Assembly: GCF_017348835.2 (NCBI RefSeq)
Contig: NZ_CP071375.1
DNA: 64,000 nt
Direction: 5' to 3' (one strand)
From: Escherichia coli
GTDB lineage: Bacteria; Pseudomonadota; Gammaproteobacteria; Enterobacterales; Enterobacteriaceae
Made by a program: the position numbers. Positions 48,301 to 51,300 of the stretch are shown piece by piece. Position 1 is the first letter of the stretch, and each line of letters starts with the position of its first letter.

Positions 48301-51300
48301 GTATCGGTGATTCAGGCAAATCAGGGAAAAATTAATGTGATGCATAGCTATCATTCGCTGGGGCGGGTATTACGCGATGCTGGTTTTCGCTTTCCGCCGC
48401 TGATTGAGAGCATTCCTGAAGGTGGGCGAATGGATGTGAGCGCGGAGCGTTTACCTGAACTGGATGCCGATTTTGTTTTTGCAACCTGGCGCGGTGACAC
48501 CGGTGGTAAACCTCAGGATGAGCTGGCAGCAATGGAAAAAGTCATGCCGGGATGGTGTCAGTTTCTGACTGCCTGTCGTTCCGGGCGTTATGTGCTGATT
48601 TCTCGTGAAGAGGCAATTTCTAACTCCTTTGCATCTCTGGGGCTGATGGCTGCGCAGATACAATCACAAATTGCGGGACGACCTCTACCGGAGGCTAAAT
48701 GATCCAGAAAGACAAAACGCGGGTTGATATTTATGGTGAGCGTTTTCGCACTCGCGCGAGTCAGTTAACGCCTGGGTTAAGAGCTGTCGCAAGCTACATT
48801 AATGAGCATCGTGAAGTGGTACTCGAGCAAACGGCGATGGAAATTGCGGCCACGTTGAACACTTCCGATGCCACAGTTATCAGGGCTATACAGGCCCTGG
48901 GGTTTGCCGGGCTGCGTGATCTGAAACGCACTCTGGAACAGTGGCTTGGTCCAGCCCTTAGTTCCAGCGAAAAGATGTCTACGACGGTGAGTAACTTGAC
49001 GAGCGATGTTAACACCGCAATCGACTTTGTTCTTGAAGGGCATTTGTATACCTGTAATGTCCTGTCAGAGCCTGAAAACCGCCACGCGCTTGCGCAAGCT
49101 GTAGCGTTGTTGGTACAGGCACGGCAAGTCGCAATTTTTGGCATTGGCGCTTCGGGTATTCTGGCGGACTATACCGCACGACTATTCAACCGCATAGGTT
49201 TGCCTGCCACGGCACTAAACCGTACGGGTATTGGCCTTGCCGAGCAACTGATCGCGCTTCAACGTGGCGATGTTCTGATCATGATGGCGCAAAAATCTGC
49301 GCACCGGGAAGGACTGACAACGCTGCGTGAAGCGAGACGGCTGGGGATCCCTGTTATTTTGCTGACAAACGCGCTGGATTCACGTTTTAGCAAAGACGCC
49401 AGTATCGTGATTCATGTTCCGCGCGGGGATGAAAAGGGGAAAACGCCACTACATGGTACGGTATTGTTGTGCCTGGAAATGATTGTTTGGTCGGTGGCTT
49501 CCGCGATGCCGCAGCGTGCGGTTAAAACCATTAAGCGAATTAACGATTTCCATCGGGGTTTGAAAACAGGAAGAAAGAATGGCTAATCTGACCTGAGGCC
49601 GGTAGCAACACCGGCCTTTTTCAGGAATGTTAAATCCCCGGTTGCAGAATACGGATATTCATCTCCAGCACGTCGCCTTTTACGGCTTCGCTGTACGCCT
49701 TCATGTGCGGGGTTTGCAGATGCGCTTCAAGGTGCGCGATGCTTTCCCACTGCTCAATCATCACGATAGAATCCGGTGCCATAGACTGGAAACTCACGCC
49801 AGCAGCGCAATCCACCATTGGCGCATAGCCGTGGCAACCTTCTTCTTTCAGTACGGTTGGAACGATTTTAGCAAACTGATCCAATACCGCCTGACGGTGA
49901 TGTTGACCAGGACGAGTACGGATTTCTGCGATTACGGTAAGCATGGTTAACTCCTTCTAAAGCCTGAGCTCTAGTTAACCAAAAATTTCCACAAGATGCT
50001 TGCGATATTCTTCAGTATAGCGGGGAACATCAGGCATTTTTATCACGTCATTAGCGATAAATGTCGGCAGCGGTTCCATACCGAGGAATTGGTTTGCTTT
50101 ATGGAACGACAGATACACACCGTCAACGCCAACGCCGTGGAAGAACTGATCTTTTTCGGTGAAGGCTTCCATTGGTGCGTTCCAGGTTAGAGAAAGCATA
50201 TATTTTTTGCCCTGTACCAGGCCGCCGGAACCGTATTTTTTCGACGGATCTTTGCGGGTACGACCATCGCTGGCATACAGAGTCCCGTGACCTTCGGTGA
50301 ATACATCATCAATGTATTTTTTCACTGTCCACGGCGCGCCCATCCACCAGCCTGGCATCTGCCAGATCACCACATCAGCCCAGAGAAAGTTTTGTACTTC
50401 CGCTTTGACATCGTAGTCGCTGTCGGCGCGAACGATGCGAACATCATGCCCGAGGTCGCGCAGTGTGCCATCCGCGACTTCGGTCAGGGTGTCGTTCAGT
50501 TGACCATTGGAGTGGGCGAATTTTTTCACGCCGTTGATAATCAGGATGTTGCTCATTTTTTAACCTCAAGGTGAGACGTTTGCCAACTATAGTACGTCAC
50601 AGAGCGGTACGGTGAAATTAGCAAAATGTGCAAAGTCTTTTGCGAATTTAGCAAAAGTCTTACCCTTACCAGCTTACTTTCGCCTCAAATCCACCTTGTT
50701 CCGCATTCCCAAATTCAACATTCATGCCATGCAGCTTGGCGATTCGCTGGACAATCGATAGCCCAAGTCCACTGCCGGTAGCGGTTTGTCCGGGTGGGCG
50801 ATAGAAGCGTTCGCCAATTCGCGCCAGTGCCTCTGGTGTCACACCGGGGCCGTTATCCCTCACGATGAAATTATCGGCATTCAGCGTGACGTCCACCACG
50901 CTGCCCTGTGGACTGTAACGCACGGCGTTATCCAGCAAATTTCGCACCAACAAACTTAGCAATAGCGGTTGTCCGGTGCGTTTGATGCCCTGGACATTGA
51001 GTGTCAGTCGCACGTCAATTTTCGCCTGCTGCGCCGTGTGGTAAATATCCATCACCGACGATTGCAGGAGATCTTCAAGCGGGATCTCCGCGACGTCCTG
51101 AAGGTTATCCAGTGAGTCCAGCCGCGATAGCGTGAGCAGTTGATCAACCAGACGAGTAGCGCGATCGATCCCGTAATGTAATTGAAGCAGTGCTTTTTTC
51201 CGCGCCTGCGGATCATCGTCAGAGAGCTGCGCAACTTCGGTTTGCACTTTCAGCGCTGTTAACGGGCTACGTAGTTCGTGAGCTGCATCGGAGGTAAAGC

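What the first reader, a model, noticed from the sequence alone, without database searches (positions are those of the whole stretch)
50557..50665. Short mdaB-qseC intergenic region: ygiZ appears to be absent
From memory, K-12 has a small inner-membrane protein gene (ygiZ) between qseC and mdaB. Here the gap is about 109 bp with no ORF. This is a minor strain difference; the track's 95-aa ORF 50287..50574 overlaps mdaB on the opposite strand and looks spurious.
Basis: partly seen in the sequence, partly recalled or inferred. Interest (0 to 1): 0.2.

Follow-up and report, generated by a model that had tools for sequence, protein, structure and literature searches.

The report
Ancestral qseC–mdaB gap without ygiZ
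This E. coli strain really does lack the small gene ygiZ between qseC and mdaB, but that is the ordinary ancestral layout of enteric bacteria; ygiZ in K-12 looks like the leftover antidote gene of a three-gene bacterial-warfare cassette inserted at this spot.

Summary
mdaB (49975-50556, -) and qseC (50666-52015, -) are 109 bp apart. No ygiZ, hcp or effector homologue occurs anywhere in the 64-kb window. The 95-aa antisense ORF has no support.

K-12 has a 696-bp gap here, 587 bp longer, and that gap holds ygiZ.

The short gap is the ancestral state rather than a loss:
- 77 of 80 Enterobacteriaceae species representatives have a gap of about 102-144 bp at this site.
- Published Salmonella work reports 106 bp.
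- The window aligns base for base with the empty sites of E. albertii and two other non-coli Escherichia genomes. It shows no deletion scar.

The same three genes travel together in all 9 loci examined, from several genera, including a Serratia plasmid. ygiZ is therefore most likely an orphan type VI secretion immunity gene.

The gap in the window holds the conserved mdaB promoter region. The finding itself is ordinary. The side inference about ygiZ is the only modestly new part.

The parts
49975..50556 (-). mdaB, NADPH:quinone oxidoreductase, 193 aa
   Evidence: ORF list. Annotated as mdaB in PE164, which is 100% identical over the 601 bp around the gap.
50557..50665 (.). 109-bp qseC-mdaB intergenic region. 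This is the empty, ancestral allele with no ygiZ.
   Evidence: Sequence. K-12 alignment shows 587 extra bp there. The first 104 bp (50557-50660) are shared by 5,424 of 5,426 E. coli genomes. The gap is about 102-144 bp in 77 of 80 Enterobacteriaceae species representatives. Salmonella is reported at 106 bp (PMC2653508).
50660..50665 (.). Site where other strains carry the hcp-effector-ygiZ cassette or its ygiZ-only remnant. It lies within 6 nt of the qseC stop codon (50666-50668).
   Evidence: Junction comparison in mdaB orientation. Window: TGGTAA|GGGTAAGACTTTTGC. E. albertii: TGGTAG|CGGTAAGACTTTTGC. K-12 and full-cassette strains: TGGTAAC-[insert]-GAGTAAGA(TCAGA)CTTTTGC. The window lacks the extra 5 bp and all cassette ends.
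50610..50643 (-). Block GCAAAAGACTTTGCACATTTTGCTAATTTCACCG, mostly at least 90% conserved in 75 aligned gaps. Inferred to be the activator-binding part of the mdaB promoter. It contains a marbox-like match at 50616-50634.
   Evidence: Conservation profile. The marbox consensus matches with 2 mismatches, but such matches occur at chance frequency across the window, so support comes from position and conservation. mdaB is cited as a mar-regulon member (PMC2989944) and as PreA/QseB-activated in Salmonella.
50589..50617 (-). Candidate core promoter of mdaB-ygiN: weak -35-like TTTCAC (50612-50617), a 17-nt spacer, and -10-like TACTAT (50589-50594). Other genera have TAAAAT or TAGAAT at the -10 position.
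   Evidence: Read from the sequence and the cross-species alignment. The consensus scanner does not call it, as expected for an activator-dependent promoter. This is an inference.
50637..50657 (-). Palindrome or hairpin CTTTTGC-N7-GCAAAAG just after the qseC stop codon. The TTGC-N7-GCAA core is conserved across genera. It may be a weak qseBC terminator or a protein-binding site.
   Evidence: It appears in both the MFE and the centroid fold, but the fold is no more stable than shuffled sequence (z = -0.25). TTGC and GCAA conservation is shown. The terminator scan is negative.
50564..50567 (-). Shine-Dalgarno GAGG of mdaB
   Evidence: Conserved at 80-90% or more in the 75-sequence alignment, 7 nt upstream of the ATG.
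50666..52015 (-). qseC, sensor histidine kinase, 449 aa. Stop codon TAA at 50666-50668.
   Evidence: ORF list. PE164 annotation.
50287..50574 (+). 95-aa ORF (GTG start) antisense to mdaB. Spurious.
   Evidence: Listed mechanically. No Pfam hit. Not annotated in PE164. It overlaps a well-supported gene on the other strand.

Best explanation
The window carries the ancestral, uninterrupted qseBC | mdaB-ygiN junction of the Enterobacteriaceae. The 109 bp hold three things: the 3' end of the qseBC transcription unit, the conserved activator-dependent mdaB-ygiN promoter (a marbox-like block, weak -35, -10) and the mdaB ribosome-binding site.

Nothing has been deleted from this sequence. K-12 and about 85% of E. 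coli instead carry foreign, AT-rich DNA inserted within 6 nt of the qseC stop codon. In its complete form that DNA is a three-gene orphan type VI secretion cassette on the opposite strand: hcp (tube and chaperone protein), a 236-aa signal-peptide-less protein with a lytic-transglycosylase or lysozyme-like (GH23-like) fold, and ygiZ, a three-helix inner-membrane DUF2645 protein. K-12 keeps only ygiZ, with its own promoter.

What is shown: the absence of ygiZ, the polarity of the change, the cassette composition and its synteny. What is inferred: the 236-aa protein is an Hcp-delivered cell-wall-degrading toxin, YgiZ is its immunity protein, and a strain with the empty allele (such as this one) should be sensitive to that toxin. 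mdaB regulation should be unchanged, because the 104 promoter-proximal bp are the same in all alleles.
For: Absence of ygiZ:
- The gap is 109 bp.
- tblastn of YgiZ, Hcp and the effector against the window is negative.

K-12 differs:
- K-12 has 587 extra bp carrying ygiZ.

Polarity (short = ancestral):
- 77 of 80 species representatives have a gap of about 102-144 bp. These include E. albertii, two other non-coli Escherichia genomes, Citrobacter, Salmonella, Klebsiella, Enterobacter, Kluyvera, Leclercia and Raoultella.
- Salmonella preB-mdaB is published as 106 bp.
- The window junction is colinear with outgroup empty sites and lacks the TCAGA extra bases and cassette ends of filled alleles.
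- The insert is 35% GC.

Allele frequencies in 5,426 complete E. coli genomes:
- 4,599 have ygiZ sequence.
- 1,261 have at least 80% of the full cassette.
- 3,030 have the K-12-specific 163-bp segment.
- About 826 have none of it.

Cassette identity:
- Hcp matches PF05638 (E = 2.4e-19) and TIGR03344 (E = 1e-58).
- The effector family has invariant W-I-E82 (next residue Ser in most), T-S-x-G-S-x3-Q119 and R-Y-N-R-G.
- The AF2 model has pLDDT 75.8.
- Foldseek top hits are MltE, Tse3 and Slt.

Synteny and topology:
- The hcp-effector-DUF2645 triplet is present in 9 of 9 loci examined, at different genomic sites in several genera and on a Serratia plasmid that carries traI/traX conjugation genes.
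- YgiZ has three hydrophobic segments, a K/R-rich N-terminus and second loop, and an acidic 26-aa loop. That loop carries the family's most conserved motif (NKYDWM.E.G.S.CS.P). The effector has no hydrophobic segment.
- ygiZ is under purifying but relaxed selection (dN/dS 0.25-0.42, against 0.00-0.08 for the flanking genes).
Against: - Most E. coli (85%) and E. whittamii carry ygiZ. Within the species, the empty allele could therefore have been re-acquired by recombination rather than retained continuously.
- The cassettes of E. coli and Citrobacter werkmanii sit at the same site and are about as diverged as the flanking qseC. That is compatible with an old insertion followed by many losses.
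- The effector has no Pfam or NCBIfam hit, and the Foldseek E-values are weak (0.05).
- Known immunity proteins against peptidoglycan glycosidases are soluble periplasmic proteins or lipoproteins, not polytopic membrane proteins.
- No experiment links YgiZ to T6SS. Published phenotypes are BglJ-RcsB activation and sabinene tolerance.
- The marbox match is at chance level when taken alone.
Confidence: 0.85

Rival explanations
1. Secondary loss. The window's lineage once carried ygiZ or the whole cassette and lost it. The route would be either a clean deletion or homologous replacement of the qseC-mdaB segment by an empty allele from another strain.
For: - 85% of complete E. coli genomes and E. 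whittamii carry ygiZ.
- The ygiZ-only arrangement is old: 90% nt identity to E. whittamii, with dS similar to that of mdaB.
- Cassette divergence between E. coli and C. werkmanii is saturated, like that of qseC. The insertion could therefore predate E. coli.
Against: - The window junction matches outgroup empty sites position for position and has none of the filled-allele features: no TCAGA extra bases and no cassette ends.
- Recombination between the short GTAA repeats that flank the insert would give GGTAAGATCAGAC. The observed sequence is GGTAAGGGTAAGAC.
- Allelic replacement cannot be told apart from continuous retention with these data. Either way the allele itself is ancestral.
Confidence: 0.12
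2. The short gap hides an unannotated small gene or small RNA that replaces ygiZ functionally.
For: Three ORFs of 33-51 aa touch the gap. A 34-nt block is highly conserved across genera.
Against: - None of the small ORFs has a Pfam hit.
- There is no Rfam match even at E <= 1.
- The fold is no better than shuffled sequence.
- PGAP annotates nothing in the identical stretch of PE164.
- The position of the conserved block, directly upstream of mdaB and overlapping the -35 region, is what a promoter or operator would show.
Confidence: 0.02
3. Assembly or sequencing artefact that collapsed the region.
For: None.
Against: The same contiguous 601-bp stretch (gap plus flanks) is found as a single aligned piece in independent complete genomes, for example PE164, NZRM4165, PA11, CUWW06, ETEC4067 and EC12. 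About 826 genomes have no cassette sequence at all. The gap length matches 77 other species.
Confidence: 0.01

Closest known systems
Salmonella Typhimurium preB(qseC)-mdaB junction (Merighi et al. 2009, PMC2653508)
   Same: Same gene order: qseB-qseC, then mdaB-ygiN. The intergenic region is short (106 bp against 109 bp). The same conserved block GCAAAAGACTTTGCACATTTTGCTAATTTCACCG is present.
   Different: In Salmonella the two units were shown by RT-PCR not to be co-transcribed, and mdaB-ygiN was shown to be PreA-activated. Neither has been tested for this E. coli allele. The first roughly 25 nt after the stop codon differ in sequence.
E. coli K-12 ygiZ locus (b3027)
   Same: Identical flanking genes. 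The 104 bp next to mdaB are 99% identical.
   Different: K-12 has 587 extra bp: about 70 bp of the cassette's left end, a 163-bp K-12-type segment carrying the BglJ-RcsB-activated ygiZ promoter (PMC3950696), ygiZ itself, and a 30-bp inverted repeat facing qseC. The window has none of this.
Orphan hcp islands with an effector-immunity pair, and retained orphan immunity genes (for example the Pantoea agglomerans hcp island, PMC9796082; the V. cholerae orphan immunity arrays cited there)
   Same: The order is hcp, then an effector, then a small membrane or periplasm-targeted protein. Some strains lose the effector but keep the immunity gene, which is the K-12 state. The DNA is AT-rich and horizontally mobile.
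   Different: Here the island lies far from any T6SS cluster, between two housekeeping operons. The effector and immunity families (a GH23-like protein with no Pfam family, and DUF2645) are not described as a T6SS pair in any paper I could search. The window itself contains no part of the island.
Tse3/Tsi3 (Tge1/Tgi1) and Tge2/Tgi2 T6SS peptidoglycan glycoside hydrolase effectors
   Different: Only 13-15% sequence identity. It is much smaller than Tse3. The putative immunity protein is a polytopic inner-membrane protein rather than a soluble periplasmic protein or lipoprotein.

Membership tests
ygiZ / DUF2645 gene present in the window | An ORF with similarity to YgiZ (PF10840) between qseC and mdaB or elsewhere in the window | tested here: not met
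   tblastn of YgiZ against all 64 kb gives a best hit of 4 residues, E = 8.8. The gap is 109 bp.
Ancestral Enterobacteriaceae qseC-mdaB junction | qseC stop and mdaB start on the same strand, about 100-145 bp apart | tested here: met
   109 bp in the window. About 102-144 bp in 77 of 80 species representatives. 106 bp published for Salmonella.
Ancestral Enterobacteriaceae qseC-mdaB junction | Conserved promoter block GCAAAAGACTTTGCACATTTTGCT(A/C)ATTT(C/T)ACCG upstream of mdaB | tested here: met
   Present at 50610-50643 (-). Most positions are at least 90% conserved in the 75-sequence alignment.
MarA/SoxS/Rob-activated promoter (marbox) for mdaB | Match to the marbox consensus AYNGCACNNWNNRYYAAAY placed next to or over the -35 region | tested here: inconclusive
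   There is a 2-mismatch match at 50616-50634 (-), overlapping the -35-like hexamer. However, 16 such matches occur in the window against 16.5 expected by chance. Membership of mdaB in the mar regulon is taken from citations in PMC2989944. Binding was not tested.
Orphan T6SS hcp-effector-immunity island (applies to the insert in other strains, not to the window) | Hcp/TssD gene at the head of the unit | tested here: met
   PF05638 E = 2.4e-19. TIGR03344 E = 9.7e-59, score 198 against a cutoff of 58.9. PDB Hcp matches at E = 1e-20.
Orphan T6SS hcp-effector-immunity island (applies to the insert in other strains, not to the window) | A toxin-fold protein without a signal peptide directly downstream of hcp | tested here: met
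   [not shown]
Orphan T6SS hcp-effector-immunity island (applies to the insert in other strains, not to the window) | A small envelope-located protein encoded directly downstream and strictly co-inherited with the toxin | tested here: met
   A DUF2645 gene follows the effector in 9 of 9 loci, at different genomic sites and on a plasmid. Three hydrophobic segments.
Orphan T6SS hcp-effector-immunity island (applies to the insert in other strains, not to the window) | T6SS-dependent secretion, toxicity and specific neutralisation by the downstream protein | not testable with these tools
   Needs secretion, toxicity and competition assays. No publication was found.
Pfam SLT / GH23 lytic transglycosylase family (for the 236-aa protein) | Significant match to the family HMM | tested here: not met
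   No Pfam or NCBIfam hit at E <= 0.1. It is therefore described as GH23-like by fold and motif, and not filed as a member.

The most novel reading that the evidence does not exclude
YgiZ (DUF2645), a K-12 gene of unknown function, is the immunity protein of an undescribed Hcp-linked, GH23-like peptidoglycan-cleaving T6SS effector. On this reading the qseC-mdaB junction is a recurrent landing site for the cassette in Escherichia, Citrobacter and Pseudocitrobacter. Most E. coli, including T6SS-less K-12, keep ygiZ as an orphan shield. The roughly 15% of strains with the empty ancestral allele, this window included, would be the susceptible class in intraspecies T6SS warfare.
Probability: 0.6. 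Interest if true: 0.45.

Novelty: already known. Interest (0 to 1): 0.2.

Why it matters
The window feature itself matters little. It is a common allele, and it is the default gene order of enteric bacteria.

The comparison is useful in two ways:
- It corrects the K-12-centred view. The 'missing' gene is really an insertion in K-12.
- It gives a testable function for a K-12 gene of unknown function. ygiZ would be the surviving immunity gene of an hcp-toxin-immunity cassette. Presence or absence of ygiZ would then predict which E. coli strains resist or succumb to a cell-wall-degrading T6SS toxin carried by about a quarter of the species.

Tried and rejected
1. The 109-bp gap alone as a BLAST discriminator of the alleles. 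This failed because 104 of the 109 bases are shared by all alleles. I counted alleles with cassette-specific queries instead.
2. The literature lead that the orphan hcp might be the APEC hcp2B. Rejected: hcp2B heads an hcp2B-vgrG2-xmtU/xmtV operon at another locus. The STEC 'orphan hcp' preprint describes an Hcp-ET nuclease, also a different locus.
3. Sequence-only annotation of the 236-aa protein. Pfam, NCBIfam and phmmer against PDB gave nothing, or spurious light-harvesting-protein hits at E > 0.1. Only the structure comparison was informative.
4. Consensus promoter and terminator scans and Rfam on the gap. All were empty. The hairpin fold is no better than shuffles.
5. The marbox consensus as stand-alone evidence. 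It matches at chance frequency. It did recover a 1-mismatch site about 85-100 bp upstream of tolC, which I recall (from memory) as the known tolC marbox.
6. A simple deletion between short flanking repeats as the origin of the empty allele. The predicted junction does not match the observed one.
7. I first assumed qseBC and mdaB-ygiN might form one operon in the empty allele. The Salmonella RT-PCR data argue against co-transcription.
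Full report
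OBSERVATION

The window encodes ygiN (49630-49944), mdaB (49975-50556), qseC (50666-52015) and qseB (52012-52671), all on the minus strand. That leaves exactly 109 bp (50557-50665) between the mdaB start codon and the qseC stop codon.

Only three mechanical ORFs of 33-51 aa touch the gap. None has a Pfam hit. No Rfam family matches at E <= 1. The 95-aa ORF at 50287-50574 (+) lies antisense to mdaB, has no family hit, and is not annotated in E. coli PE164. PE164 is 100% identical to the window over the 601 bp around the gap (window 50300-50900).

tblastn of YgiZ against the entire window finds nothing. In K-12 (strain JM83) the same gap is 696 bp and holds ygiZ on the opposite strand.

WHICH STATE IS DERIVED

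A BLAST of the junction against 5,426 complete E. coli genomes showed several allelic states.

Cassette-specific queries gave these counts:
- 4,599 genomes carry ygiZ sequence.
- 1,261 carry at least 80% of a larger three-gene insert.
- 3,030 carry the 163-bp segment specific to the K-12 ygiZ-only form.
- About 826 (15%) carry nothing, like the window.
- About 300 further genomes carry other ygiZ-bearing variants. One example is a +39-bp allele with a premature stop that gives a 98-aa YgiZ.

For polarity I fetched the mdaB locus from 80 species-representative genomes and located qseC, mdaB and the cassette genes by tblastn. In 77 of 80 the qseC-mdaB gap is about 102-144 bp. These include Escherichia albertii, two other non-coli Escherichia genomes, many Citrobacter, Salmonella enterica subsp. 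arizonae and diarizonae, Klebsiella, Enterobacter, Kluyvera, Leclercia and Raoultella. Three of these values were corrected for incomplete qseC alignments. A published Salmonella study gives 106 bp for preB-mdaB (PMC2653508).

At the nucleotide level, in mdaB orientation:
- Window: TGGTAA|GGGTAAGACTTTTGC
- E. albertii: TGGTAG|CGGTAAGACTTTTGC
- K-12 and full-cassette strains: TGGTAAC-[insert]-GAGTAAGA(TCAGA)CTTTTGC

The window is colinear with the outgroup empty sites. It has neither the extra TCAGA nor any cassette end. Recombination between the short GTAA repeats that flank the insert would not produce its sequence. The insert is 35% G+C.

The short gap is therefore the ancestral allele, and ygiZ-bearing alleles are insertions within 6 nt of the qseC stop codon (window 50660-50665). 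I cannot exclude that this lineage regained the empty allele by homologous replacement. The allele itself would still be ancestral.

WHAT THE 109 bp CONTAIN

An alignment of 75 empty gaps shows a block that is mostly at least 90% conserved: GCAAAAGACTTTGCACATTTTGCTAATTTCACCG (window 50610-50643, minus strand).

Around this block lie:
- a conserved TTGC-N7-GCAA palindrome or hairpin upstream of it (50637-50657);
- a weak -35-like TTTCAC downstream of it (50612-50617);
- a 17-nt spacer;
- a -10-like TACTAT (50589-50594; TAAAAT or TAGAAT in other genera);
- a conserved GAGG ribosome-binding site (50564-50567).

The block contains a 2-mismatch match to the marbox consensus (50616-50634). Such matches occur at chance frequency across the window (16 found, 16.5 expected). 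The assignment therefore rests on position, on conservation, and on literature stating that mdaB belongs to the mar regulon and that mdaB-ygiN is PreA/QseB-activated and not co-transcribed with preB in Salmonella.

The simple promoter and terminator scans find nothing, and the hairpin is no more stable than shuffled sequence. All 104 bp next to mdaB are shared by 5,424 of 5,426 E. coli genomes, so I infer that the insertion does not alter mdaB control.

WHAT ygiZ IS

In strain WCHEC035125 and about 23% of E. coli genomes, the insert consists of three co-oriented genes facing qseC: hcp (159 aa), a 236-aa hypothetical protein, and ygiZ (110 aa).

Hcp is a bona fide TssD (PF05638 E = 2.4e-19; TIGR03344 E = 1e-58).

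The 236-aa protein has no Pfam, NCBIfam or PDB sequence match. Evidence for its fold:
- Its family (24 sequences from Escherichia, Pectobacterium, Erwinia, Serratia and Chania) has invariant W-I-E82 (the next residue is Ser in most sequences), T-S-x-G-S-x3-Q119 and R-Y-N-R-G. This echoes the E-S / G-L-M-Q / A-Y-N-x-G motifs that I recall for GH23 lytic transglycosylases.
- An AlphaFold2 model (pLDDT 75.8) matches MltE, Tse3 and Slt by Foldseek.
- It has no hydrophobic segment or signal peptide.

YgiZ has three hydrophobic segments, a K/R-rich N-terminus and second loop, and an acidic 26-residue first loop. That loop carries the family's best-conserved motif, NKYDWM.E.G.S.CS.P. This fits an N-in topology with a periplasmic loop.

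The hcp-effector-DUF2645 triplet is intact in all nine loci I examined:
- E. coli, Citrobacter werkmanii and a Pseudocitrobacter MAG, all at this same site;
- Pectobacterium, at two other sites;
- Erwinia sorbitola;
- Chania multitudinisentens;
- a 75-kb Serratia plasmid carrying traI and traX conjugation genes.

ygiZ evolves under purifying but relaxed selection: dN/dS is 0.42 against E. whittamii and 0.25 against C. werkmanii, compared with 0.00-0.08 for mdaB and qseC.

The best-supported reading is an orphan T6SS module: Hcp carrier, cell-wall glycosidase toxin, membrane immunity protein. The K-12-type allele is then a retained orphan immunity gene after loss of hcp and the toxin. Such a pattern is described for Pantoea hcp islands and Vibrio cholerae (PMC9796082).

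The K-12-type arrangement is old. It shows 90% nt identity over all 700 bp with E. whittamii, and its dS is similar to that of mdaB. Its unique 163-bp segment is where the BglJ-RcsB-activated ygiZ promoter was mapped (PMC3950696).

I found no paper linking ygiZ or DUF2645 to type VI secretion. The known ygiZ literature concerns BglJ-RcsB regulation and sabinene tolerance.

CAVEATS

- The immunity role is inferred from synteny, localisation and fold only.
- Known immunity proteins for peptidoglycan glycosidases are soluble periplasmic proteins or lipoproteins, so a polytopic membrane immunity protein would be unusual.
- Why diverged copies of the cassette occupy the same few nucleotides in three genera is unresolved. 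The candidates are an old insertion with many losses, transfer by flanking homology, or a site preference.

VERDICT

The finding is real and correctly interpreted, but ordinary. The window shows the ancestral, widely shared empty allele of a known presence/absence polymorphism. Interest is low (0.2). The only part that goes beyond what I could find in the literature concerns DNA that is not in this window: the prediction that K-12 ygiZ is an orphan T6SS immunity gene.

Noticed in passing
window 53751-53858 (between ygiV 53268-53750 and ygiS 53859-55466): The mqsR-mqsA toxin-antitoxin pair lies between ygiV and ygiS in K-12. It is absent here: the two genes are 108 bp apart. This is a second K-12 'extra' missing from the same neighbourhood.
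   Followed up: partly
window about 42331-49629 (between parE 40438-42330 and ygiN 49630-49944): A seven-gene block sits where K-12 has only 48 bp between parE and ygiN. It comprises a TonB-dependent siderophore receptor (42394-44535, -), an ABC ATPase, two FecCD permeases, a siderophore-binding protein and a MurR/RpiR regulator (48699-49586, +).
   Followed up: no
window 37804-37822 (-): This is one of the three best marbox-consensus matches in the window (ATGGCACGTAACGCCAACC, 1 mismatch). It lies about 85-100 bp upstream of tolC (36238-37719, -). From memory it corresponds to the known tolC marbox, and it served as a positive control for the pattern search.
   Followed up: no
L019 (Citrobacter werkmanii) 2226-3754; L077 (Pseudocitrobacter MAG) 2123-3646: Diverged copies of the hcp-effector-DUF2645 cassette sit at the very same qseC-mdaB junction in two other genera. 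Amino-acid identity to the E. coli copies is 75/73/60% and 67/67/44%. The close relatives of these genomes have the empty site. The cause (old polymorphism, flank-mediated transfer or site preference) is unresolved.
   Followed up: partly
L087 (Serratia plasmid CP072744.1) 5507-7058; L093 2520-4042: The same three-gene cassette occurs on a 75-kb plasmid next to the traI/traX conjugation genes. In another genome it is wedged into a flagellar gene cluster between fliJ and fliI. In L093 the DUF2645 ORF (3716-4042) was not called by the source annotation.
   Followed up: partly
L001 (K-12 JM83) 1935-2097: The K-12-type allele has a 163-bp segment between the cassette's left end and ygiZ that shows no similarity to the full cassette. 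It is present in 3,030 of 5,426 genomes. Its origin is unknown. It holds the BglJ-RcsB-dependent ygiZ promoter (PMC3950696).
   Followed up: partly
[not shown]
   Followed up: no
L001 2409-2453 / L002 7039-7083: In insert-bearing strains a 30-bp near-perfect inverted repeat (CTATGAGAGTCGTTTTAACGGCTCTCATAG) lies between the convergent ygiZ and qseC genes. It is probably a bidirectional terminator brought in with the cassette. The empty allele in the window has no equivalent.
   Followed up: no
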